UHGV virus genome: UHGV-0186980
Direction: 5' to 3' (one strand)
DNA length: 44,857 bases
Source: a virus
Shown here piece after piece: positions 1 to 44,857 of this stretch (position 1 is its first letter; the number at the start of each line of letters is the position of its first letter). A program made the translations under genes and the position numbers. The notes beneath the pieces were generated by a model. That model was not told the DNA's origin and did not search any database. It was given only the letters and a program-made list of their open reading frames with translations.

Positions 1-3000
1 AGCCCGTTTTCCAGCGCCGTCGTCCGGTTCCCGATGCTGGACAACGTATCGCCCTGCTGAGTGACTTTCGTGGTCAGGGTATCCACTGCTGACGCGGTGG
101 CATCGGCGATTTTCTGTGCGCGGTTCGCTGCGGTGACGTTGCGCAGATGCCAGTCTGCTGCATACCAGACCGTACCAAAGGGTGAACTCTGGTTAACCTG
201 CAGGAAGGGGCGCAGGAAATTCGTGTCAGACGGCACCGTAAAGCGCCATGTTGCGCGCTTCCAGGCCGCCGTGGTTTTCGTGTTACCGCCAGAAAGTCTC
301 GCTTTAACCCCTTCCGTCGCTGAGGTGCCGCTGGCGATATAGAGATTAAAATCGGCCTGACCGGCGCCGCAGGCTACCAGGGCCGACATCTCGAAGACAT
401 CACCCGGAGTGACAGCAATGTTGTTTATTTTTGGGACATGATCGCGGCCTGCCAGACGAACCACGTACGCAAACGGGCAATCCCCGGGCACGCCAGCAGC
501 GCCGGATGATACGACGTCATACCCCATGCGGTCGTAAGAAGGATCAAATGCCGGGTTAGGTATATAGTCATCCCCGGCTGCTTTTGCGGCGCTAATTGAG
601 CTGTTGAGGGAAGTGATATTACTGTTCGCTGCAGTCAGGCCACTTTCCGTCTTCTCCACTCGCCCGGTCAGTGACGTCAGCGCGCTCTGATCCGCCTTTT
701 TACTCACATTCGAGTTCGTCGTGGTCAGGTCATTCTGCAGCTTTGTGATTGCCTGGCTGTGGCTGGCCAGTTTCCCTTCCGCTGAGTCAACGCGACTGGT
801 CAGGTCAGTCACGGCAGAGGCATTTGCCTTCTTCGACACCCCGGTCGACGAAAAAACGTCGACTTTACGGATATACAGACGCGCACTGTTTGACGGTACC
901 CAGCCCCCGGCGGCAAACCGCAGATAGACATAATTCCCGGTAAAGTTTTCCGGAATGGTCAGCTCCACGGTTTTCGTCTGCCAGCTGGTCGTCACGCCAC
1001 TCAGCCACGGGGATTCTGAGGATAGCCAGGCGACAGGATTGCCCAAATCAGTTATCACACCAACGGTATCAGACGATACGCTGTTCATCGTTTCCGATGT
1101 TTTGTACTCAAATGAGACGGTAAGCGTCAGCCCGGCCTCAGCAGGGATACGCGTGACGTTGGCAACCCGAACAGAGCCGGTTGTCGTTCTCAGCGCTTTT
1201 TCACCTGCATCATACGTGAATGCCGAGCCGGTACCGGAGTTCTCCCAGAACGACAGATCCACATCCATGCCGCCGTTACTAATCAGGCTCCCTTCAGCCA
1301 GGGTGTTTTTCAGCATCGTCAGCTGGCCAGACTGTGTGGTCAGGTTGCCTTCCGTCGCGGATACCCGGTTGGTTAACGCCGTGACCGCGCTCGCATCGGC
1401 CTTTTTACTGACGTTTGAATTGGTTGTCGTCAGGTCGTTCTGCAGTTTAGCGATCGCGCTGCCCTGGCTGGTCAGCGTTTTATCCTGCTGGCTGACGCTG
1501 GACTGCAGGCCCGTGATGGCGTTGCTGTTTGCGGCCACGCCCGACTCTGCTTTACCGACGCGGTTAGACAGCGAGGTCAGCGAATTCCCCTGGCTGGTTA
1601 ACGTAGTGCCCTGCTGTTCAACCTTTTGCGTGAGGGACTGCAGCGCGGTTGCATCGGCTTTTTTACCCAGACTGGTTTCCAGCCCGCTGATTTTGCTGGC
1701 CTGTGCGCTTTGTGCGGTCGACAGGGAACTCAGCTCCTCCGCCACCGAGGATTTATTCTCGTTGAACTGCGTCTGCAGCGATTCCCGGGCTGTCACCTCT
1801 GCTTTATCAGCAGTGATACGGGCATTCATCTCCTGAAACAACAGGCCAGAGCGCAGGTCTGCCAGATTATTGCTTTCACTCGTCCCCCGCATCTGCGTGG
1901 CCAGCGTGGCTCGCTTATTCGCTTCTGCCGTATCGGCATTCGCACGGGCTGTCGATTCTTCGCGCAATGCTGCAGTGCTGGCTCCCGGCGTCGGTCGACC
2001 CACGGCAATCCAGTCAATGATGATGAAATTATCATCAGACTGATCCACCGTTAAATCGAGGCGAAACTGGACAACCGGCTTGCTGTCATCGCTTCCCCAG
2101 GGAATGTCCTGAATACTGAGAACAGCCCTGCCACTGCTGTCATAATCCGGCTCTGCGACGGTCAGCATGCGACTGTCGTTGAACGACTGACCTTCATAGC
2201 GCCAGCGGATTTGACCACTCCACGCGGGCGTCCCCGTTTTCTTAAGACGCAGTTTCAGAAAGCGGTACGCTGAGCCACTGATACTGATTCCAGGAGATGT
2301 AATGTAAGCATCTGTCGCATGGTTTGCCGGTCTCAGCCAGCCGTTTTCAACAACCGAAGGCGTGCCGCCGTTAGATGTCCAGCCTTCCCGGTCGTTATCA
2401 AAGTACCAGATAGCCTGGCTGTCAAACTGCTCCCCGGTTCCCGCCGAAATCTGAGCCATCTGTGTGGCCAGAGAATCATTCACATTCTGGATGATTTGCT
2501 GTGTCGACTCGATAGCTGCAACACGCTCGTTTTTTTCATTCAGCAGCTGGTCTGCCGCCTGCGCCGCTTTCGCGTTGACGTCCGCAATGCGGTCGGCAGT
2601 CTCCTGTTTTACCGCTTTGTCCCAGCCTGTATTCGCCTGGGCGATGGACTGTTTCAGACTGTTTTCAACCGTCTGCAGCTGGGATTTTAACGCAGCATCC
2701 CCTTCGGCCAGGGTTTTGTTAACGTCAGCGATCTGCTGGTCAACGGAGGCATTAATATCGCTCACGGCATCGGTGATGCTCTTGTTGACTGCCGTGATAT
2801 TGTCACTGAGCGTCTGATTTACGCTGTTGATATTCTCCGTTATCGACTTGTTGACCGCCTCTATCTGCCCGTCAACCTGCTGGCGGATCTCAGACGCGGA
2901 ATCATCAATACTCTGGTTAATATCGGTGACCTGCTGCGCGACTTCTTCACGAATAGCATCGGCGGTTTTTGTCAGCTCCTTGTGGGTCTCCTCAATATCC

Positions 3001-5510
3001 CGCTGGGCTTCCTGCCAGGCTTCCGTATCCTTAATCGCATCGGTCAGCTTGTCGTAATACTCACCGATATCGTCGCTGGCCATCCCCTGCACCCAGGCGG
3101 TCCACGGGCTTTCATTGCCGATACGATCAACGATCCGCGCGCGGTACCAGAATATCGCCGCAATCTGCAGGCCCATCTGCTGATACGTTTTACCCGGATA
3201 CGCCACATCAGACAGCGCCATCGCCCCGTTGCCGTTGGGATTAGGACTGTACTGCAGCTCGGTTTTCTGCGTATCGCCGCTCCCCTCCGGGAACTCCCAG
3301 TTCAGCTGCACGCCATGCAGCAGGGAAGTGGTGGTCAGCGCCAGCGGTGCCGACGGCAAACCGATTTTTCCGGTCAGCGTTTTCTCTTCTGAGTATGCCC
3401 AGCCGCTGGAGACCTCTGCAGCGTTGATCGCCCGGACACGGGCCAGATAACGACCGGCGTAAATGCCGCTGACCTCGAACGAGGTGGTCGAGCTGCGCGG
3501 CACGTTAATCCAGTTACCGTCATTACGTCGCCACTGCGCTTCATACGAAATCGCATCTTTCACCGCATTCCAGTGCACCTGCATCGTTTCAACGCTGATG
3601 CCCTGATTCACCACAGAATACGAGCTGATGACGATATTTTCCGGCGGTGACTGGTTCCCCGGAGGAATAACGCTTATCGGGCGCTGGTCGATGATCGCGC
3701 CGGTATCGATACGCGGAAATTTATCCGGGTCGTGGGCCACGCCGGTGATTGTATACGTGGCATTGTTGTTGTCCTTTACCCCAATCACGCGGTACTGCTG
3801 TGTATACAGATCGTCGGACTCAATAACCCATACGCACTCTGTTTCCGGCGTCTCACTGTAGGCCGTAGTGACTGTTATCTGCCGTCGACCGTTGACTGAC
3901 TGGATCGTCCGGGCCTGAGATATGCCTGACGGTAGGTTCAGCTGCAGCCGGTCACCGGCTTTTGCATCAGTATCCCGGTCAAGGGTAATCACCCGGCCAT
4001 TAACCGCACTGATACGCCCGCCGTTCACGCGTCCGGCCAGCAGTTCATCAGCCAGGCCAATGATGTAGCCCGGCTGCGGAATTTTGCCATCGAGACCGAC
4101 ATCGATTTCAACCATGCGGTCTTTGTTGTTGGTCAGAATGCCCCACAGCCCTTTCCTGTGGGCTTCGCTCTGCCGGGTACACCCAATGGCCGTCACTTCG
4201 AGCTGGTTAAAGCTGTAGCGGGAAACCAGCTCCGGGACGAACGCCGGTTCCATCGCATCAGCATACGCATTCGCCGGGTCGGACCAGGAGACCAGCGCGT
4301 TGGTGTAGCGGGCCTTGCTTGTGCTGCTCGAATAACGCGGTTTGCCAATAATGTTCGCCCGCGTGTAGTTGAAATCAACATCGCGCGGCATATCCGCCTG
4401 CACAACAATCTGCTCACCGCTCCAGCAGGTCATTCCCCGGAAAATAGCCGCAAAGTCACGCAGCACGGTGTAGGCATCATTGCGTTCCTGCACGTAAACG
4501 TTACAGAGATAGCGAGGCTCCATGCCATCGCCGCCCCTGCCATCGGGGACCATCTGATCGCAATACTGCGCAATCTGGTACAGCGTCCATTTAGAGATAT
4601 TCGCGCTGGTCAGACGGTTGCCGAGGCCAAACCGGTCTGAAACAACGATATCGTAATAAATCCATGCCGGGTTATCCGTCCAGGCCCATTTAAACCCGCC
4701 GGTCCAGGTGCCGGTATACTCGCGGCTCTCCGGGTTGTAGTTATCAGGAACGCGGATCACGCGCCCGCGTGGCTCACAGGAAATTTGCGGGATGGAACCA
4801 TTAAACTGGCTGGAGTCGAACTCGATATAGAGCAGCGCGGTATGCGGATAGCGCAGCTTCGCGTCGATTACTTCTGTGTAGCTCTGTAACGTCATCACAT
4901 CGCCGATTTTGACGCTGTTGGCGTCCGGCGATACTTTCCGCAGGCGGAGCGTCCATGTGCTCCCCGCTTGCGGCAGGTCGATGCGGTGGCTGCGCTCATA
5001 GCCGGAAGTGGTTTTCCCGGTAACCGCCGTTTCCAGCACGGTCTGCCATGCACCGCCATCTGTCTGCAAATCGATGGCGTATTTAACCGTGTTGCCCACC
5101 ACGTCACCATCATCTTCCTGCTTCATCAGGGACGGCCACTTCAGACGGACGCGGACGGCAGATAGCTGAGTATTTGTAAACGTATGGCTCCAGGCGGTTT
5201 CGCTGGATATTTCTGTTCCGACGCTGATTTCATTTTCAGTGCCGGGAATGCCTTGAATATATTTTTGTGCCTGTGTTCCGGGACGAAATTCCCAGGCCAC
5301 GCCGGAAAAGTTCTCTGACCCGTCGGCATTTAATAGCGGGGTACCATCGAGATAAATATCCTTGCCCGTTAATTCACCTGCAAATTCTCCCTCGCCCAGC
5401 GCGATGAGAATTTTGGCTTTTGCTACGGACTGTAAATCATCCGGCTGCTCCGTCGGCGTGCGCTGGCTTGAGCTGCCACCTTTGCGCCCTTTGATTATGT
5501 TATTTGCCAT
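1..5510 (-). CDS. J: Host specificity / central tail fibre protein J-like, with long C-terminal fibre-repeat extension; 3' end truncated by window
   Basis: ATG at 5510-5508, N-terminus MANNIIKGRKGGSSSQRTPTEQ resembles lambda J; same frame checked open at 2040-2099 and at 3-119; absent from ORF track, consistent with an edge-truncated ORF. Antisense ORFs in the track (955..1836+ etc.) are Ser/Val/Ala-rich junk. Confidence 0.75.
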   Translation of the reverse strand, partial: MANNIIKGRKGGSSSQRTPTEQPDDLQSVAKAKILIALGEGEFAGELTGKDIYLDGTPLLNADGSENFSGVAWEFRPGTQAQKYIQGIPGTENEISVGTEISSETAWSHTFTNTQLSAVRVRLKWPSLMKQEDDGDVVGNTVKYAIDLQTDGGAWQTVLETAVTGKTTSGYERSHRIDLPQAGSTWTLRLRKVSPDANSVKIGDVMTLQSYTEVIDAKLRYPHTALLYIEFDSSQFNGSIPQISCEPRGRVIRVPDNYNPESREYTGTWTGGFKWAWTDNPAWIYYDIVVSDRFGLGNRLTSANISKWTLYQIAQYCDQMVPDGRGGDGMEPRYLCNVYVQERNDAYTVLRDFAAIFRGMTCWSGEQIVVQADMPRDVDFNYTRANIIGKPRYSSSTSKARYTNALVSWSDPANAYADAMEPAFVPELVSRYSFNQLEVTAIGCTRQSEAHRKGLWGILTNNKDRMVEIDVGLDGKIPQPGYIIGLADELLAGRVNGGRISAVNGRVITLDRDTDAKAGDRLQLNLPSGISQARTIQSVNGRRQITVTTAYSETPETECVWVIESDDLYTQQYRVIGVKDNNNATYTITGVAHDPDKFPRIDTGAIIDQRPISVIPPGNQSPPENIVISSYSVVNQGISVETMQVHWNAVKDAISYEAQWRRNDGNWINVPRSSTTSFEVSGIYAGRYLARVRAINAAEVSSGWAYSEEKTLTGKIGLPSAPLALTTTSLLHGVQLNWEFPEGSGDTQKTELQYSPNPNGNGAMALSDVAYPGKTYQQMGLQIAAIFWYRARIVDRIGNESPWTAWVQGMASDDIGEYYDKLTDAIKDTEAWQEAQRDIEETHKELTKTADAIREEVAQQVTDINQSIDDSASEIRQQVDGQIEAVNKSITENINSVNQTLSDNITAVNKSITDAVSDINASVDQQIADVNKTLAEGDAALKSQLQTVENSLKQSIAQANTGWDKAVKQETADRIADVNAKAAQAADQLLNEKNERVAAIESTQQIIQNVNDSLATQMAQISAGTGEQFDSQAIWYFDNDREGWTSNGGTPSVVENGWLRPANHATDAYITSPGISISGSAYRFLKLRLKKTGTPAWSGQIRWRYEGQSFNDSRMLTVAEPDYDSSGRAVLSIQDIPWGSDDSKPVVQFRLDLTVDQSDDNFIIIDWIAVGRPTPGASTAALREESTARANADTAEANKRATLATQMRGTSESNNLADLRSGLLFQEMNARITADKAEVTARESLQTQFNENKSSVAEELSSLSTAQSAQASKISGLETSLGKKADATALQSLTQKVEQQGTTLTSQGNSLTSLSNRVGKAESGVAANSNAITGLQSSVSQQDKTLTSQGSAIAKLQNDLTTTNSNVSKKADASAVTALTNRVSATEGNLTTQSGQLTMLKNTLAEGSLISNGGMDVDLSFWENSGTGSAFTYDAGEKALRTTTGSVRVANVTRIPAEAGLTLTVSFEYKTSETMNSVSSDTVGVITDLGNPVAWLSSESPWLSGVTTSWQTKTVELTIPENFTGNYVYLRFAAGGWVPSNSARLYIRKVDVFSSTGVSKKANASAVTDLTSRVDSAEGKLASHSQAITKLQNDLTTTNSNVSKKADQSALTSLTGRVEKTESGLTAANSNITSLNSSISAAKAAGDDYIPNPAFDPSYDRMGYDVVSSGAAGVPGDCPFAYVVRLAGRDHVPKINNIAVTPGDVFEMSALVACGAGQADFNLYIASGTSATEGVKARLSGGNTKTTAAWKRATWRFTVPSDTNFLRPFLQVNQSSPFGTVWYAADWHLRNVTAANRAQKIADATASAVDTLTTKVTQQGDTLSSIGNRTTALENG

Positions 5511-5520
5511 ATCGCGTCCA

Positions 5521-5546
5521 TAAAAAAAGCCACCGCAAGGTGGCCT
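5521..5546 (-). terminator. Intrinsic terminator-like hairpin between I and J (GCCACC-GCAA-GGTGGC followed by T-run on minus strand)
   Basis: 6-bp GC stem, 4-nt loop, 7 A on plus strand = U-run for minus-strand transcripts; 12 nt upstream of J ATG. Confidence 0.5.
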
Positions 5547-5573
5547 GTACTGGAGGAATTACTGACTGATTAT

Positions 5574-6173
5574 TTATTGCTGGTCTTCGACGTATATTCC
5601 TGCGGAAATAATCGCGCCGCCAATTCGCCGCTTACCATAAAGCAAACCAACGGGATAACCCTGTGAGGCGGTATTTGTTACACCGCCAAAGGCATAGCTG
5701 GCTTTATTCTCGGGAGATTCTCTGCGGGCTAGACCTCCGGGCTGAGGGGAAAGCATCTGGACGACGCCGCCTAGCATCATGGCTGCGCCGCTGGTCATAA
5801 GGCTTGCAGCCAGTGGAGAAGCCGTCCCGCCCGAAACATACGTCATTACCGCGCCCACAACGACCAGCACTGCGCCAAGAATCGTTTGAAGAATTCCGGC
5901 CTTTTTACTACCAATGACGACAGGAACGATGCGGACTACTTCTCCTGTAGCAGGAAATCCCAAATCATCCTTACCAATATTCTTCTTGCCCCGGAAAACA
6001 GCAAAGGTCAGTCCCTGTTCCTTGCTGTTAAGCATGAATTTTTCGAACCCAGGAATGGTCGCCGCTAATGCGGCCCCCGCTTCATGAATTGTGCTAATTA
6101 AACGATAGTGGAACCTGCCAAAGGTTTTTCCCAAAACGCCAGAAAGCTCTATTCGTGTCATGGTTTCTTGCAT
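5574..6173 (-). CDS. I: Tail assembly protein I
   Basis: C-terminal half (MMLGGVVQMLSPQ, PVGLLYGKRRIGGAIIS) matches lambda gpI as remembered; position between K and J. Confidence 0.8.
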   Translation of the reverse strand: MQETMTRIELSGVLGKTFGRFHYRLISTIHEAGAALAATIPGFEKFMLNSKEQGLTFAVFRGKKNIGKDDLGFPATGEVVRIVPVVIGSKKAGILQTILGAVLVVVGAVMTYVSGGTASPLAASLMTSGAAMMLGGVVQMLSPQPGGLARRESPENKASYAFGGVTNTASQGYPVGLLYGKRRIGGAIISAGIYVEDQQ

Positions 6174-6218: not shown

Positions 6219-6623
6219 TTACTGTCCGCATAGCTTACGTATAGCCATGTACCTAATAGTATCGGCCTCATCACGAACGTATACTTTACTGGATAAATAA
6301 TACTTTGGTGACATAAATGGCAATAATGTAGGCTCAGCAACCAGTGTTATAGCAAAGGGGGTCGGTCCGTTATAGGCACCAAAACTATTTCTCCCGTTAA
6401 CTTTCCCGATTATGCAATATGCGCCATTTCCAATATCTCTATCATTTATTTCTCTTGTTACCAAATCAGTAAATTCGGCACTATCAGGATCTTTCATTAT
6501 CCTTTTAATTTCTTTCTTCGCGATATCAGTAATCTGATCATTACCTGGCTTACAGCCTGCCAGGCAAATAGCGCATAAAAATACAGTTAAAAAATTCCTC
6601 ACTTGCTTCTCCTTTTCAGTCAA
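6219..6623 (-). CDS. Small lipoprotein moron (signal peptide with lipobox LAGC); possible superinfection-exclusion protein
   Basis: N-terminus ...RNFLTVFLCAICLAGCKPG; AT-rich insert between K and I; possible GTG start near 6603. Confidence 0.55.
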   Translation of the reverse strand: MTEKEKQVRNFLTVFLCAICLAGCKPGNDQITDIAKKEIKRIMKDPDSAEFTDLVTREINDRDIGNGAYCIIGKVNGRNSFGAYNGPTPFAITLVAEPTLLPFMSPKYYLSSKVYVRDEADTIRYMAIRKLCGQ

Positions 6624-11880: not shown

Positions 11881-12224
11881 TAGTTTTTTTGTGCTTCCTC
11901 CAGCGTACCGTAGCTAAAACGCTGGACCTTGCTCATCGCCTCGGTTATCGATGCATAGGAGCGTGATTTCATCAGTTCCAGCGGAGAAGGCAGGTTCTGC
12001 AGGGGAAGGCCATTTTCGTCGACCAGAGCGCTCAGTACCAGCCCTGCAGCTTCCAGCATCAGCCCTCGCGTATTATCGGGACCGGTCAGCTGTGATGCTT
12101 TATCTTCAAACTCTGACATTTCAAAGGCGGTAAGACGTCTGATATGGAATTCGCTGCCAAACAATTGGACAGGAACTGCATCACTGTCAGGGGCCAGAAG
12201 GCGGGATTTAACGTCATCTTTCAT
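11880..12224 (-). CDS. G: Tail assembly chaperone G
   Basis: 114 aa acidic protein immediately upstream of T and tape measure; conserved gene order. Confidence 0.6.
   Translation of the reverse strand: MKDDVKSRLLAPDSDAVPVQLFGSEFHIRRLTAFEMSEFEDKASQLTGPDNTRGLMLEAAGLVLSALVDENGLPLQNLPSPLELMKSRSYASITEAMSKVQRFSYGTLEEAQKN
11883..11889 (-). other. Programmed -1 frameshift slippery heptamer A_AAA_AAC at 3' end of G
   Basis: Minus-strand ...GCA CAA AAA AAC TAA; -1 shift reads ...K K L M N S P W = T frame. Confidence 0.6.
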
Positions 12225-12287
12225 TGGTTACTCTCCATAAAATAGCCACCCGGACCGGAGGTGGCTGTCACTTCAATAATGATGTGG

Positions 12288-12746
12288 TTATGCCCCGCTG
12301 CTGTTGGCAGTGCCCCAGGTGATTTTGTTCTGCTTTCCCTGCACGGTGATCTGAATGACCTCACTCGCCGGAGCGGTGATTTCGTTCATCTGCCAGCCGG
12401 ACAGCGCCAGCAACATCGTCGCCGTCCGCTTGTTCGGTAGTTCAACATACAGCTGGATAGTTTCTCGGGCTTCCGCTGCGTTAAGCAGAGCGGCAAAATC
12501 CGTATTGCTCGGATCATCAATAAAACCCAGCGACTTTTCAGGCCCGTCAGGCAGATCACTGATGGATTGTTTCTGCTTATCAAGCAGCGTAGTGCAGTCG
12601 ACAAAACCTCCCGTCTGCCCCATTGCGCCCAGCGCTTTACAGTTAACCAGCGGCTTCAGAGCCGATGCTGCAGCGCCGGGTTCCCCGTATTTTACGATGG
12701 TGCCAGCAGGCAACATCGCATATTCAGGCGAACTCTTATCAGCCAT
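12288..12746 (-). CDS. Major tail protein (V-position, HK97-like tail tube subunit)
   Basis: 152 aa, position upstream of G/T; no motif recognised. Confidence 0.5.
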   Translation of the reverse strand: MADKSSPEYAMLPAGTIVKYGEPGAAASALKPLVNCKALGAMGQTGGFVDCTTLLDKQKQSISDLPDGPEKSLGFIDDPSNTDFAALLNAAEARETIQLYVELPNKRTATMLLALSGWQMNEITAPASEVIQITVQGKQNKITWGTANSSGA

Positions 12747-12781
12747 AATTTTCTCTCTTTTTTATGAATGGGTAGCTAACG

Positions 12782-13186
12782 CTACCTGTTTTGAATGCCG
12801 TTGCGGATTTCGACCGCTAGGACGCGCAGAACCTTCTGGACATTGTGATCCAGCGCCGGTCGGATAAACGGTTGAGCCACTTGTTTAACGGTGCCAACCT
12901 CCTGCGCCAGTGCTTTCATATGATGCTTTTTACTCGGTCCAACCCGGAGGGTGACAACGGTACTTCGGTACTTCGCTGTTCCCTTCCTTGAGCTGATTTT
13001 TATACTGTCCCGCATATGAGGGCCGGGGCTTTCTTTGTCAAAGCCGGCATGCTGCTTCATATCCTCCTGGACAACCTTTAACGCCTCACGACCGGCATCC
13101 CGTAACACCTTCGTCGCGACCTTTTCCCCCAAAGCGGTTAACTGCCGTTCCAGCTCATCCAGCCCTTTCACCTCCATTCGGATCAT
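12782..13186 (-). CDS. HK97 gp10-like head-tail/tail-terminator component
   Basis: 134 aa, ...FIRPALDHNV... resembles HK97 gp10 family as remembered. Confidence 0.5.
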   Translation of the reverse strand: MIRMEVKGLDELERQLTALGEKVATKVLRDAGREALKVVQEDMKQHAGFDKESPGPHMRDSIKISSRKGTAKYRSTVVTLRVGPSKKHHMKALAQEVGTVKQVAQPFIRPALDHNVQKVLRVLAVEIRNGIQNR

Positions 13187-13572
13187 GAAGAGTCCTCCAC
13201 GTAGTGAATGATGAAATCACGAATCAGGCGGTACTGGATGCTGCGGTTCGTCAGCGTCGTTTTATCCTGTTGGATACCACCACGCTCCACATACTGAACC
13301 GGGATACCCTCAAGCTGGCCGTGAACGATTGACTTCCATTCCGACCAGATTTTTTTATCAAGTAGCAGCAGTGAGGTGTAATCATCAACGCGGTACAGGT
13401 TCACCTGGATACGGGCAGATACGATCCCCGTCCGTAATGTTCCCGAGACCATTTCCGGGTCAGAGATACGCTGAAAGGTCACTCCTTCCTGGACCGTGTC
13501 CGGCAGTAAAAGCGGGTACGCATCCATGCCGGTGATGCGCTCCAGCGCGGTTTTAATCGCCAGTTCTATCAT
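13183..13572 (-). CDS. Head-tail joining / tail completion protein (start refined to internal ATG 13572)
   Basis: Track ORF N-terminus is junk-like and overlaps upstream gene; MIELAIKTALERITG start 20 nt inside upstream gene end. Confidence 0.45.
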   Translation of the reverse strand: MIELAIKTALERITGMDAYPLLLPDTVQEGVTFQRISDPEMVSGTLRTGIVSARIQVNLYRVDDYTSLLLLDKKIWSEWKSIVHGQLEGIPVQYVERGGIQQDKTTLTNRSIQYRLIRDFIIHYVEDSS

Positions 13573-41771: not shown

Positions 41772-41981
41772 ATGGCAAAACTTATGAAAGCGAGTCAATG
41801 GGGAAAACGCGAATTTACCAAAGACTCTATTCCGGATAATCGAACCATTAAACGTTGGGTCGAAAATGGCCTACTCACAGGTAAAATCGTCGACGGCTCT
41901 GTTTTCGTCTACGAATCTGAAAAATGGGGGGTCGACTCGATGGTTAATCATGCGGTTCGCCAGCTTATCAGTGAGGGTTAA
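41772..41981 (+). CDS. xis: Excisionase
   Basis: 69 aa, ...RTIKRWVENGLLTGKIVDGSVFVYESE; immediately upstream of int. Confidence 0.7.
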   Translation: MAKLMKASQWGKREFTKDSIPDNRTIKRWVENGLLTGKIVDGSVFVYESEKWGVDSMVNHAVRQLISEG

Positions 41982-41983
41982 CC

Positions 41984-43165
41984 ATGGCAGCAAGGCCAAG
42001 AAAAAGGGAATACCGCCATCTACCTGATTATCTAATATTTGATAAAGATCGCGGCGTTTATAAATTCACCTTAATTACAGGGAAGAAAAAGAACATTGGG
42101 AAAGATCGGGCTATAGCCATCGCTATTGCGCGCGAATACAACCTCAGAATGCGGCAGGCAAATGCTCCGTCAGTTGAATTGCTTATCCGTGATTCTGGCG
42201 GCGTGTCGGGTGAAGCTAAACCTTTTGCCGAGCATGTTGATCACATCATGGCGCGTGCGATTGAAAATGAACGTCCGTCGCAAAATACGCTTGATGACTG
42301 GAACAACGACGCACTAAGGGTGAAGGAATTCTTTAGCAACATACCAGCTTGCGATATTGAGCTGGAGCATGTGAACGCCTACATAAAGCATTACCACTCA
42401 GATTCATCAGCGAACGTACAAAACCGGAAGGTCAGCTTCCTTAAAAAATTGTTCTCGTATGCGGTCGATGAATCATTGATGTTTGATAATCCTGCTACAC
42501 GCAAAAAAATGCGAAGAACCGAAGAGAAGAAACGCCAGCGTCTTTCACTCGATAACTTTAAAGCCATTCGTCGGGCCGCCGAACCCTGGTTACGCACCGC
42601 GATGGATTTAGCATTACAGACGACGCACGCTCGCCTTGAAGTGTCTAGGATTCGGTATTCAATTCGTGAACCTAAGAACGGTATTTGTGGTTGTGTATGG
42701 CTCGAACAGCCAGAAGATGGCATATATGGAACGCTTTACATCCATCGTCAAAAGGTACAAAAGAAGGAAGCATCGCACGTTGCGATTCCAATTGGGGATG
42801 AGCTAAAGCGCATAATTGATGAAAGTAGGGATAACGTAGCTAGTCCGTTTGTTGTTCATCGGATTCCGGAGCGACAGGTTAAACGCAGTAAAGAAGTTTC
42901 ACACCCAACTCAAGTTGCGCCTGACTATCTTAGTCGCTCGTTCTCCTCGTTACGCGATGAGCTAGGGCTTTGTGATCATCTTGCGATGGACGAACGCCCT
43001 ACATTTCACGAGATCAGAGCCCTTGCAGCACATTTGTTTAATAGCCAAGGAATCGATCCTCAAGGCAGAATGGCTCACAGTGATGCAAAATCAACAAAGA
43101 TTTATACTCAAAACCACATTGATTGGATCGTCGTTCCACACGGGGAAATTAAATACAATGCATAA
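41984..43165 (+). CDS. int: Tyrosine integrase
   Basis: 393 aa; C-terminal HEIRALAAHL...AHSDAKSTKIYTQNH catalytic region. Confidence 0.9.
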   Translation: MAARPRKREYRHLPDYLIFDKDRGVYKFTLITGKKKNIGKDRAIAIAIAREYNLRMRQANAPSVELLIRDSGGVSGEAKPFAEHVDHIMARAIENERPSQNTLDDWNNDALRVKEFFSNIPACDIELEHVNAYIKHYHSDSSANVQNRKVSFLKKLFSYAVDESLMFDNPATRKKMRRTEEKKRQRLSLDNFKAIRRAAEPWLRTAMDLALQTTHARLEVSRIRYSIREPKNGICGCVWLEQPEDGIYGTLYIHRQKVQKKEASHVAIPIGDELKRIIDESRDNVASPFVVHRIPERQVKRSKEVSHPTQVAPDYLSRSFSSLRDELGLCDHLAMDERPTFHEIRALAAHLFNSQGIDPQGRMAHSDAKSTKIYTQNHIDWIVVPHGEIKYNA

Positions 43166-43199: not shown

Positions 43200-43583
43200 T
43201 TAGGAAGCTTCTGACTTGGTCATATCAGCGCAACGCTGGATTAATTTCTCTGCAGTCTTAATTGCGGTGCTTGATTGGGTTGATGTAACAGTGTCGTTAA
43301 GTCTGTAATCACAAACTATTCTCTGATCCTTAAGCGATTGTAGAGCATACCCCAAACCAATTAAGTCTCTTTTATCAAAAGGTTCGTTGCCCTTCCAAGC
43401 ATCGTTAACGAGATAGTCAATGAGGCCCTGGTGACTTTCCTTCGGCCCCATGGTCAAACACGGAAGTACGTGGTGATAGGCGCCATAATACGCACGAGCG
43501 ACAGCATTTCTGTAACCAATTTCGTCGTTACGTTTTTCACAATCTTTTGCGAAAGCGATAATCTCAGAACTATTAACTGGCAC
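43200..43583 (-). CDS. Cargo protein B (unknown; possible HEPN-like R-x6-H motif)
   Basis: Start refined to GTG 43583 with GGAGGA RBS; 11-nt overlap with cargo A stop; RAYYGAYHH. Confidence 0.5.
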   Translation of the reverse strand: MPVNSSEIIAFAKDCEKRNDEIGYRNAVARAYYGAYHHVLPCLTMGPKESHQGLIDYLVNDAWKGNEPFDKRDLIGLGYALQSLKDQRIVCDYRLNDTVTSTQSSTAIKTAEKLIQRCADMTKSEAS

Positions 43584-44340
43584 GCGCAGGTTCCTCCGAA
43601 TGTCCTTCAAACCAGACGCTGAAAGGTTTTCCAATCAAACTTTCATTTTCTGCAAGAGAAAATGCTATATCTAGGTTCATATCAGAGAGAACATCAGAAT
43701 CTTCAGTATTAACTGTCATGACATACGATGACGTCCGCTCTTCAGGGACAGAGCAGAAAGACATAGCAACAGGACCAACCTTATGGTAGCTCATGATATC
43801 CACAATGCGATTTGCAATATCCTGGAATTCTTCATCAGTAATTCCAGTTGTACTTTTGAAAGTCGTGGATTGGGCCAGTGCTGTGGCTGCGAGGTGCTTA
43901 ACCAATTCAGCCTCCTTTTCATCTACCATACTTATCAACCTCTCAGCATAGTAGAGCGCTTTGTCAATACGCCCCAAGAACAAGTTGGCTTCCCATGCAT
44001 GGGACAACATTGTAGGCGAGTTATAACGTTCAACTAATCGATTTACCGCTTGTTCAACTTCACGAAAACTGCCGTAATCGTTAAGGTAAACTACATAATT
44101 TTGAGCAATGAGTAGGTTGTTATGCTTCAATGCTTCTTCAAAGAATGCAACAGCCGAATCCTTACGCCCAAAAGCACCATTAGCCAACGCTTTGAGATAG
44201 TCCTCAGATGCACTGTCGCGCAACTTTTCTATATCTCTTAGATATCGAAAATATTGCATTTCGGATATCGTACCCCGAGCCGCAAGTATATCGATTAATT
44301 CGCTGCTGATTTCGTTCGCTTTTAGCGCCAATTTTGGCAT
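43573..44340 (-). CDS. Cargo protein A (unknown; helical TPR-like N-terminal region)
   Basis: ATG 44340 with AAGGA RBS (track start is an upstream TTG at 44388); AT-rich DNA between int and att core. Confidence 0.5.
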   Translation of the reverse strand: MPKLALKANEISSELIDILAARGTISEMQYFRYLRDIEKLRDSASEDYLKALANGAFGRKDSAVAFFEEALKHNNLLIAQNYVVYLNDYGSFREVEQAVNRLVERYNSPTMLSHAWEANLFLGRIDKALYYAERLISMVDEKEAELVKHLAATALAQSTTFKSTTGITDEEFQDIANRIVDIMSYHKVGPVAMSFCSVPEERTSSYVMTVNTEDSDVLSDMNLDIAFSLAENESLIGKPFSVWFEGHSEEPARAS

Positions 44341-44545: not shown

Positions 44546-44778
44546 ACTATTACTTACCCACAGAAATGTACTTTTCGCTCGGTTTGCAAAAAGTGCTATA
44601 GATGGGACCTATTAATAACAGCAAGCAAAAACAAACTGTAAAAATTGTGGGGTAAAACTGACGTTAAGTATTTGATGTATATAGTGTGGATTTTGCATAA
44701 AGCGCACTGTTTGTATATACAGTCGAATACACTCCAGAAGCAGTATTTACAAGGGCTCCAGCACCTTTACAGCAGTGA

Positions 44779-44824
44779 CATGGGGTGTCGGGGGTCGGAG
44801 GTTCAAATCCTCTCGTGCCGACCA
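44779..44824 (+). tRNA. 3' 46-nt fragment of tRNA-Pro(GGG) (proL-like), anticodon loop to CCA; prophage attachment-site core, not an intact gene
   Basis: CATGGGGTGTCGGGGGTCGGAGGTTCAAATCCTCTCGTGCCGACCA matches the 3' part of E. coli proL as remembered; no complementary 5' acceptor half upstream. Confidence 0.7.
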
Positions 44825-44857
44825 AATAATCCCAGTAAAACCAGCCTTTTAAGGCTG

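What the first reader, a model, noticed from the sequence alone, without database searches (positions are those of the whole stretch)
44779..44824. Prophage end defined by a 46-nt 3' copy of tRNA-Pro(GGG)
The last 46 nt before the chromosomal flank match the anticodon-loop-to-CCA portion of a proL-type tRNA as I remember it, but the upstream sequence cannot form the 5' acceptor, D or anticodon stems. This is therefore the displaced or duplicated core of a tRNA-targeting integrase; the intact tRNA-Pro gene should lie at the far, left end of the prophage.
Basis: partly seen in the sequence, partly recalled or inferred. Interest (0 to 1): 0.35.

Follow-up and report, generated by a model that had tools for sequence, protein, structure and literature searches.

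The report
Prophage right end at tRNA-Pro gene
The 46 bases are the displaced back half of the host's proline tRNA gene (proL), left at the right-hand junction (attR) of a Klebsiella oxytoca prophage that inserted into that gene; this is an ordinary, textbook prophage boundary.

Summary
Window 44779-44824 is 46/46 identical to positions 32-77 (anticodon loop to CCA) of tRNA-Pro(GGG)/proL of E. coli K-12 and K. oxytoca. It occurs once in the window, and no tRNA is called there.

- A lambda-type tyrosine integrase (41984-43165) lies 1.6 kb upstream.
- An isolated E. coli phage, Flotzy, has a 77%-identical integrase and the same 46 nt in its attP.
- K. oxytoca NBRC 105695 has the empty site: an intact proL followed by a flank that matches the window's continuation for 585 nt with no mismatch. 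Identity starts exactly at 44779.
- In the complete E. coli genomes CX21 and T309.Ta3, the same int-att module brackets 40-45 kb prophages. The partial copy lies beside int and the intact proL lies at the far end.

One prediction stays untested for this prophage: the second copy, an intact proL at the left end. The window and its source contig both start inside a 3571-aa tail-tip gene.

A secondary-site insertion in E. coli ECONIH5 places strand exchange at the anticodon loop. By that inference the 46 nt here are host DNA and the real phage/host junction is at about 44778/44779.

This is an already known kind of feature, of low interest.

The parts
1..5510 (-). N-terminal 1836 codons of a 3571-aa TipJ/J-like tail-tip gene that runs off the left edge of the window. 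It shows that the prophage's left end (attL) is outside the window.
   Evidence: The frame is open for 1852 codons to the window edge. The gene is called as 3571 aa in contigs identical to the window (L004, L005). In relatives it is the last gene at the prophage end.
41772..41981 (+). 69-aa ORF immediately upstream of int; weak excisionase candidate.
   Evidence: PHROG 629 excisionase, E=0.0013; weak HTH hit. A 69-aa ORF sits in the same position in the E. coli prophages of CX21, MSB1_9D and T309.
41984..43165 (+). Tyrosine integrase (393 aa) with a lambda-type N-terminal arm-binding domain, transcribed toward the att site.
   Evidence: Pfam Arm-DNA-bind_1 and SAM-like domains score above their cut-offs; Phage_integrase scores 21.9 bits, below its cut-off of 27.1. 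PHROG 1 integrase, E=9e-31. The best solved relative is lambda Int, 1z1g, E=4e-12, aligned over residues 4-359. Identity is 77% to the Flotzy/Eeyore integrases and 86.5% to the E. coli T309 prophage integrase.
43200..43583 (-). 127-aa cargo ORF of unknown function between int and the att core.
   Evidence: Called as a gene in L009/L010. PHROG 5176, unknown function, E=2e-29. No Pfam, NCBIfam, PADLOC or PDB match. It is 98% identical to the ORF at the same position in E. coli T309.
43573..44340 (-). 255-aa cargo ORF of unknown function (weak TPR-like signal).
   Evidence: Called as a gene in L009/L010. PHROG 17809, unknown function, E=5e-41. Sub-threshold TPR hits. No PADLOC or NCBIfam hit. It is 92% identical to the T309 counterpart.
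44587..44778 (+). Conserved phage P arm of attR. It includes a single GGGG-type arm-site-like motif (TGGGGTAAA, 44648-44656) and conserved TGTATATA-containing blocks.
   Evidence: About 76% identical to the P arm of E. coli proL prophages and remnants, and alignable with Flotzy attP. The motif count in the whole window is not significant: 3 found against 1.44 expected. The arm-site assignment is therefore only an inference.
44775..44791 (+). Inferred core recombination site: GTGAC / ATGGGGT / GTCGG. This is an imperfect inverted repeat around the 7-nt anticodon loop (44780-44786), which is the inferred strand-exchange (overlap) region.
   Evidence: 4/5 pairs can form. The occupied and empty sites diverge exactly 5' of 44779. 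In E. coli ECONIH5 a 98%-identical int module recombined with the hairpin CCGAC-ATTTCTC-GTCGG, with the junction inside the shared GACAT.
44779..44824 (+). 46-nt 3' fragment of proL, tRNA-Pro(GGG), gene positions 32-77: the displaced tRNA fragment that marks attR.
44825..44857 (+). Host flank (B' arm): a spacer and the first part of the proL terminator hairpin (CCAGCC 44841-44846 / GGCTG 44853-44857, cut by the window end).
   Evidence: Identical to the sequence after the intact proL in K. oxytoca NBRC 105695. The identity continues for 585 nt from the first base of the 46-nt block in L009/L010, and a T6SS IcmF/TssM-like gene follows.

Best explanation
This is attR of a lambdoid siphovirus prophage integrated into proL, the tRNA-Pro(GGG) gene, of Klebsiella oxytoca.

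How it works. The phage integrase is a heterobivalent, lambda-type tyrosine recombinase (41984-43165). [quoted passage not shown] Exchange takes place at the anticodon stem-loop, an imperfect inverted repeat around a 7-nt loop. After integration the tRNA gene is rebuilt at the far, tail-gene end (attL) from the host 5' part and the phage-borne 3' part. The original host 3' part stays attached to its native downstream flank, next to int. That displaced fragment is the 46-nt block at 44779-44824.

Shown:
- the fragment itself, and that it is not a tRNA;
- the integrase;
- the chromosomal nature of the flank, and the exact breakpoint against an empty site;
- the same block in the attP of a related free phage;
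- the full two-copy architecture in complete E. coli genomes with the homologous module.

Inferred:
- that this particular prophage has the intact proL at its unseen left end;
- that exchange is in the anticodon loop for this phage, which is deduced from a relative's secondary-site insertion;
- that the prophage is still excision-competent.
For: 1. The block is 46/46 identical to proL, is unique in the window, and no tRNA is called.
2. Int has lambda arm-binding and core-binding domains and a sub-threshold catalytic-domain match, and its best solved relative is lambda Int.
3. Isolated phage Flotzy has a 77%-identical Int, immediately followed by a homologous P arm, the identical 46 nt, and a P' arm.
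4. Empty site: K. oxytoca NBRC 105695 has an intact tRNA-Pro(GGG) followed by 585 nt identical to the continuation of the window (L009), with 0 nt of identity upstream of the block. L009/L010 continue into a T6SS gene.
5. Complete genomes: in E. coli CX21 the order is yejO, partial copy, intact Int, 45 kb prophage, intact proL, yejM, with a 51-nt exact direct repeat. T309.Ta3 has the same layout, with Int 86.5% identical and both cargo ORFs 92-98% identical to the window. MSB1_9D and an ST536 strain also have int beside yejO.
6. Proviruses L071-L078 and L049 show an intact proL, or a contig break at the first base of the 46-nt block, followed by P' arms. L077 has related tail genes.
7. Logan contig L011 ends at nt 30 of the block. 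A k=31 assembly graph would break there if the block exists in two contexts in that sample (the value of k is my assumption).
8. Literature. Integration into tDNA regenerates the target and leaves a displaced fragment that marks the island end (PMC4383910). [quoted passage not shown] Prophages at proL occur in STEC O121:H19 (PMC8767318).
Against: - attL of this exact prophage was never seen. The tail-tip gene is 10.7 kb long, which exceeds the 10 kb flank that could be fetched.
- The closest relatives of the tail-tip C-terminus sit at other chromosomal sites: BLUF-EAL, a PBP5-like gene, and an hslJ/ldhA-like region. The tail end of this prophage therefore gives no independent clue to its site.
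- The 33 nt after the CCA that lie inside the window resemble phage P' arms (hairpin). On the window alone, attP and attR could not be told apart.
- The arm-site-like motif is not statistically enriched in the window.
Confidence: 0.93

Rival explanations
1. The prophage is a hybrid or rearranged element. Its int end is at proL, but its tail end lies at another locus, for example the BLUF-EAL site used by close relatives. This could arise by homologous recombination or inversion between two resident prophages. No intact proL would then adjoin the left end.
For: The nearest tail-tip C-termini (96-98% identical) are all found next to BLUF-EAL or other non-proL flanks. Inversions between prophages are reported in E. 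coli (PMC8767318, section on prophage variation). attL was not observed.
Against: Tail modules are simply mosaic among phages with different int modules. L067, for instance, has a different integrase (Arm-DNA-bind_3). Several independent assemblies (NCBI, ENA, JGI) are collinear with the window. The homologous modules in complete genomes are simple insertions.
Confidence: 0.04
2. The block is attP of an unintegrated or circularly permuted phage contig. Both the 46 nt and the 33-nt flank would then be phage DNA.
For: Flotzy's attP has the same 46 nt and a very similar hairpin after the CCA. The window stops 33 nt after the CCA.
Against: The window's exact continuation (L009, L010) is identical for 585 nt to the K. 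oxytoca NBRC 105695 chromosome downstream of an intact proL. It then runs into a T6SS gene rather than tail genes.
Confidence: 0.01
3. The fragment is an old scar or tRNA pseudogene from an earlier element. It would be unrelated to the integrase now beside it, and the present prophage would have arrived by another route.
For: The proL locus has a history. The K. oxytoca 'empty' flank itself carries a P'-like hairpin and two arm-type-like repeats. T309 shows int fragments and an IS at the locus.
Against: The P arm is contiguous with the block and homologous to the P arm that follows the homologous int in Flotzy and in the E. coli prophages. The breakpoint against the empty site is exactly at the block's first base.
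Confidence: 0.02

Closest known systems
int-attP module of Escherichia phages Flotzy (PP925827), Eeyore (PP925821) and Phi06_2987 S, and the corresponding E. coli prophages at proL (e.g. strains CX21, MSB1_9D, T309.Ta3)
   Same: The integrase is 77-86.5% identical, with a 69-aa xis-like ORF just upstream. The P arm is homologous and the 46-nt proL fragment is identical. The target is the proL gene between yejM(lapC) and the downstream flank.
   Different: The host is K. oxytoca, and the structural genes differ (mosaic). Here a 127-aa/255-aa ORF pair lies between int and the core, whereas Flotzy has int directly followed by attP. The downstream host flank is a T6SS gene rather than yejO.
Genomic islands and prophages in tRNA genes, anticodon-loop sublocation class (Islander database, PMC4383910; Klebsiella tDNA survey, bioRxiv 10.1101/2020.11.02.365908, site pro2A)
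   Same: A tyrosine integrase is involved. [quoted passage not shown] The regenerated gene lies at one end and the displaced fragment at the other.
   Different: Nothing essential. Whether the Klebsiella survey's pro2A corresponds to proL(GGG) was not checked.
Bacteriophage lambda Int/attP (heterobivalent integrase with arm-type and core-type sites)
   Same: The N-terminal arm-binding domain, core-binding domain and catalytic domain align with lambda Int. int is transcribed toward att. Relatives' P' arms carry three repeats spaced about 11 nt apart, as expected for arm-type sites.
   Different: Protein identity is only about 26-28%. The target is a tRNA gene rather than the gal-bio intergenic attB. 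The arm sites are inferred and not shown to bind.

Membership tests
attR (displaced tRNA fragment) of a tRNA-gene-integrating prophage | A partial copy identical to the 3' part of a host tRNA gene that is not itself a tRNA gene | tested here: met
   46/46 identical to proL positions 32-77. ARAGORN and Rfam call no tRNA.
attR (displaced tRNA fragment) of a tRNA-gene-integrating prophage | A tyrosine integrase gene adjacent to the fragment inside the element | tested here: met
   393-aa Int at 41984-43165, 1.6 kb from the block.
attR (displaced tRNA fragment) of a tRNA-gene-integrating prophage | An unoccupied site in a related genome: an intact tRNA gene followed by the same flank, with the breakpoint at the edge of the shared block | tested here: met
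   In K. oxytoca NBRC 105695 (L066), 585 nt are identical from block nt 1, and 0 nt are identical upstream.
attR (displaced tRNA fragment) of a tRNA-gene-integrating prophage | The same block present in attP of a free phage with a homologous integrase | tested here: met
   In Flotzy (L002), int at 12102-13289 is followed by the block at 13426-13471.
attR (displaced tRNA fragment) of a tRNA-gene-integrating prophage | A second, direct copy inside an intact tRNA gene at the other end of the same element | not testable with these tools
   The window and the source contig start inside the tail-tip gene. The 10.7 kb gene exceeds the 10 kb flank limit. The feature is met for homologous modules in E. 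coli CX21 and T309.Ta3, with 50-51 nt direct repeats 40-45 kb apart.
Anticodon-loop sublocation class of tDNA integrases | Strand exchange at the anticodon loop, flanked by the symmetric anticodon-stem arms | tested here: inconclusive
   The identity block starts at the last base of the 5' stem arm, and GTGAC/GTCGG symmetry is retained. In ECONIH5, a relative's insertion into the hairpin CCGAC-ATTTCTC-GTCGG has its junction within GACAT. This is shown for a relative, not for this phage, and not biochemically.
Functional tRNA gene | A cloverleaf with acceptor, D, anticodon and T arms | tested here: not met
   No ARAGORN or Rfam call. The acceptor stem forms 3/7 pairs, and the upstream 31 nt are 10/31 identical to the tRNA.
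Lambda-type heterobivalent tyrosine integrases | An N-terminal arm-DNA-binding domain plus a tyrosine-recombinase catalytic domain | tested here: met
   Arm-DNA-bind_1 scores 27.8 bits (cut-off 22). Phage_integrase scores 21.9 bits, below its cut-off of 27.1. Lambda Int 1z1g aligns over residues 4-359, including the FHEIR (HxxR) motif. The C-terminal AHSDAKSTKIY (H...Y) motif is read directly from the sequence.
Lambda-type heterobivalent tyrosine integrases | Arm-type binding-site repeats in the att arms | tested here: inconclusive
   Relatives' P' arms have three GGGG(A/T)(A/G)A-type repeats about 11 nt apart. The window's P arm has one such motif (44648-44656), and the window-wide count is not above chance. 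The P' arm of this phage was not seen.

The most novel reading that the evidence does not exclude
Two readings are not excluded by the evidence.

1. The integrase of this clade may recognise an anticodon-stem-loop-shaped inverted repeat rather than the tRNA gene as such. It could then also capture non-tRNA hairpins, as at the pdeF/ppx terminator in E. coli ECONIH5.
2. The interval between int and the att core may be a variable cargo slot. The conserved 127-aa/255-aa pair found here, 92-98% identical between K. oxytoca and E. coli, could be an undescribed accessory module, possibly for defence.

Neither reading changes what the 46-nt block is.
Probability: 0.3. Interest if true: 0.35.

Novelty: already known. 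Interest (0 to 1): 0.1.

Why it matters
The main value is practical. The block fixes the right boundary of the prophage to the base: the phage/host junction is at 44778/44779, and the host sequence resumes with the displaced proL 3' part. It identifies the host (Klebsiella oxytoca) and the attachment site (proL). It also tells an annotator that the block must not be called a tRNA gene or pseudogene of independent origin. No open question is made testable by it.

Tried and rejected
1. Looking for a second copy of the block in the window. There is none at up to 3 mismatches. This is uninformative, because the window begins inside the tail-tip gene.

2. Reaching attL of the exact prophage.
- A look-up through the tail assembly protein I homolog (window 5574-6173) stops 780 nt short of the tail-tip gene's stop codon.
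- The exact 3571-aa tail-tip protein is not among the representatives returned.
- C-terminal fragments of that protein (P0121, P0122, P0123, P0125) and shorter relatives (P0002, P0003) all lead to prophages at other sites. P0124 is not on record.
- Viral and metagenome contig scans with the tail-tip C-terminus gave 54 loci without tRNA-Pro. The exception is L049, a more distant relative whose contig starts at nt 1 of the block.
- I ran no further search on LapC. The returned cluster representative was unlikely to be the exact allele present in the target contigs.

3. Scanning viral contigs for an intact proL. This gave 8 proviruses with attL, but none from K. oxytoca.

4. Arm-site motif enrichment in the window: not significant.

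5. Function of the two cargo ORFs: no hit in Pfam, NCBIfam, PADLOC or PDB.

6. The idea that the 393-aa ORF after the tail-tip gene in L041 is an integrase was rejected. It is a BLUF-EAL protein.

Full report
**Observation**

Window 44779-44824 (+) reads CATGGGGTGTCGGGGGTCGGAGGTTCAAATCCTCTCGTGCCGACCA. It occurs once in the window at up to 3 mismatches, and none of 100 dinucleotide-preserving shuffles contains it. It is 46/46 identical to gene positions 32-77 of E. coli K-12 proL, which is annotated as tRNA-Pro(GGG) and called as such by ARAGORN. It is equally identical to proL of Klebsiella oxytoca NBRC 105695. The block runs from the last base of the 5' arm of the anticodon stem, through the anticodon loop ATGGGGT, to the terminal CCA.

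ARAGORN finds no tRNA anywhere in the window. Rfam finds nothing at gathering thresholds and no tRNA match even at E<=10 in the last 358 bases. The 31 bases upstream are 10/31 identical to the tRNA 5' part, and only 3 of 7 acceptor-stem pairs can form.

GTGAC (44775-44779) still pairs 4/5 with GTCGG (44787-44791), so an anticodon-stem-like inverted repeat survives.

**Surroundings**

- The window is a lambdoid siphovirus prophage. Terminase, portal, capsid, tape measure and the tail proteins M, L, K and I lie on the minus strand. A cI/cro-type region and early genes follow on the right.
- At the right end there is a 69-aa ORF that is a weak excisionase candidate (41772-41981). Next comes a 393-aa tyrosine integrase (41984-43165).
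- The integrase has a lambda-type arm-binding domain and matches PHROG 1 integrase. Its nearest solved relative is lambda Int, aligned over residues 4-359 including the HxxR motif.
- Two minus-strand ORFs of unknown function (127 and 255 aa) lie between int and the block.
- At the left end the window begins inside a TipJ/J-like tail-tip gene. The gene starts at 5510 and is 3571 aa long in full-length contigs. The left prophage end is therefore off-window.
- From the locus coordinates, the window corresponds to positions 2495-47351 of JGI contig Ga0169232_10091. Both ends of the window match that contig exactly, and the contig itself starts inside the same gene.

**Is the flank chromosomal?**

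Contigs L009 (ENA) and L010 (JGI) continue the window exactly. After the CCA come a terminator hairpin and then a T6SS IcmF/TssM-like gene.

An exact-pattern scan of one genome per species found a single hit, K. oxytoca NBRC 105695. There an intact tRNA-Pro(GGG) is followed by the same flank, and a lapC/yejM-sized ORF lies upstream. The occupied and empty sites are identical for 585 nt starting at the first base of the 46-nt block, with no mismatch, and for 0 nt upstream of it.

This is the classical proof of a prophage boundary. It identifies the host and rules out the idea that the window end is an unintegrated attP.

**Is the block the integrase's site?**

- Escherichia phage Flotzy is an isolated phage with a complete genome, and its integrase is 77% identical to this one. 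In Flotzy, int is followed directly by a homologous P arm, the identical 46 nt, and then a P' arm with a terminator hairpin and three GGGGAA-type repeats about 11 nt apart.
- Only Flotzy, Eeyore and Phi06_2987 S carry close homologs among 50,697 phage records. Lambda and HK022 integrases are about 26-28% identical.
- Twelve of 5426 complete E. coli genomes carry the Flotzy-type int. In CX21, MSB1_9D and an ST536 strain it lies beside yejO, which is the gene downstream of proL.
- In CX21 the whole element was read. The order is yejO, 46-nt partial copy, intact int, a 45 kb prophage, intact tRNA-Pro, yejM. The two copies form a 51-nt exact direct repeat.
- T309.Ta3 has the same layout with a 50-nt repeat 39.9 kb apart. 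Its integrase is 86.5% identical to the window's, and the same two cargo ORFs are 98% and 92% identical.
- Eight IMG/VR proviruses contain an intact proL followed by P' arms. Contig L049 starts exactly at the first base of the block. One provirus, L077, has tail genes related to the window's.
- Logan contig L011 carries the identical integrase and stops at nt 30 of the block. A k=31 assembly graph would break there if the block occurs in two contexts in that sample (the value of k is my assumption).

**Where exchange occurs**

In E. coli ECONIH5 a prophage with the Flotzy-type int (98% nt identity) is not at proL. It lies between the convergent genes pdeF and ppx.

- The empty site, seen in strain 2273-PO3, is the hairpin GCGGGCCGAC-ATTTCTC-GTCGGCCCGC.
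- In the lysogen, the int-proximal junction reads P arm...GTGAC-ATTTCTC-GTCGGCCCGC.
- The distal junction reads GCGGGCCGAC-ATGGGGT-GTCGGGGG...CCA, followed by the P' arm.

The junction therefore falls within the shared GACAT, at the 5' edge of the 7-nt loop. The target mimics the proL anticodon stem-loop CCGTC-ATGGGGT-GTCGG.

By inference, exchange at proL also occurs at the anticodon loop. The 46 nt at 44779-44824 are then the displaced host fragment, still joined to its native flank. The phage-borne copy rebuilds proL at attL. This matches the published description of tDNA islands (PMC4383910). [quoted passage not shown] Prophages at proL are also recorded in STEC O121:H19 (PMC8767318).

**What could not be shown**

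The second copy, an intact proL at the left end of this very prophage, was not reached. The tail-tip gene (10.7 kb) is longer than the largest retrievable flank. The exact protein is not among the database representatives. All retrievable relatives of its C-terminus lie at other chromosomal sites: BLUF-EAL, a PBP5-like gene, an hslJ/ldhA-like region, and thrS-proximal. This shows only that the tail module is mosaic.

A rearranged prophage whose tail end lies elsewhere therefore remains formally possible (about 4%). The precise check is given under next steps.

**Verdict**

This is an ordinary attR of a tRNA-integrating prophage. The kind of feature is already known, and interest is low.

Noticed in passing
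L082 (E. coli ECONIH5 NZ_CP026202.1) 6505-6565 and 47735-47775; empty site L083 393-419: A prophage with the Flotzy-type integrase is inserted between pdeF and ppx, in a terminator hairpin (CCGAC-ATTTCTC-GTCGG) that mimics the proL anticodon stem-loop. The phage-borne 46-nt tRNA fragment ends up at the distal junction, fused to non-tRNA DNA. This is a natural secondary-site event that places the exchange at the loop edge.
   Followed up: yes
window 44825-44857 and its continuation L009 12842-12925; L066 455-539 (-): The 'chromosomal' flank after proL in K. oxytoca, in the empty site too, carries a phage-P'-like terminator hairpin and two GGGGTG-type repeats before it diverges. E. coli K-12 has no such repeats. 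This suggests that the resident proL 3' region is a scar of an earlier phage integration.
   Followed up: partly
window 43200-43583 (-) and 43573-44340 (-): A conserved overlapping ORF pair (127 aa and 255 aa; PHROGs of unknown function; weak TPR signal) sits between int and the att core. It is 98% and 92% identical in the E. coli T309 prophage. It is absent in Flotzy and replaced by ImmA/IrrE+HTH genes in an E. coli ST536 strain (L087). The int-att interval looks like a variable cargo slot.
   Followed up: partly
window 1-5510 (-); L004 10664-20600: The tail-tip (TipJ/J-like) gene is 3571 aa long and has internal repeats about 2.5 kb apart (443-nt segments about 95% identical). Several assemblies break inside it. 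Its C-terminal module (96-98% identical) occurs in prophages at at least three other chromosomal sites.
   Followed up: partly
L009 13201-15798 (-): A T6SS IcmF/TssM-like gene (865 aa called) lies directly downstream of proL. At least two contigs that carry the prophage (JGI and ENA) end about 3.0-3.4 kb beyond the att site, which suggests a repeat or a variable region there.
   Followed up: no
L084 (E. coli T309.Ta3) 2322-6121: The int region of the T309 proL prophage contains an IS903B transposase and a DUF2971 gene. These lie between a 380-aa int and a second, degraded int C-terminal fragment. This indicates either a disrupted int or tandem remnants.
   Followed up: partly
L071-L078, L049, L002 (P' arms, first ~100 nt after the CCA): Two families of P'-arm triple repeats follow proL in different proviruses: a GGGGAA/GGGGTG type and an ATGGTGAAA type. 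Each has spacing of about 11 nt. This suggests at least two integrase arm-binding specificities that share the same proL core.
   Followed up: no
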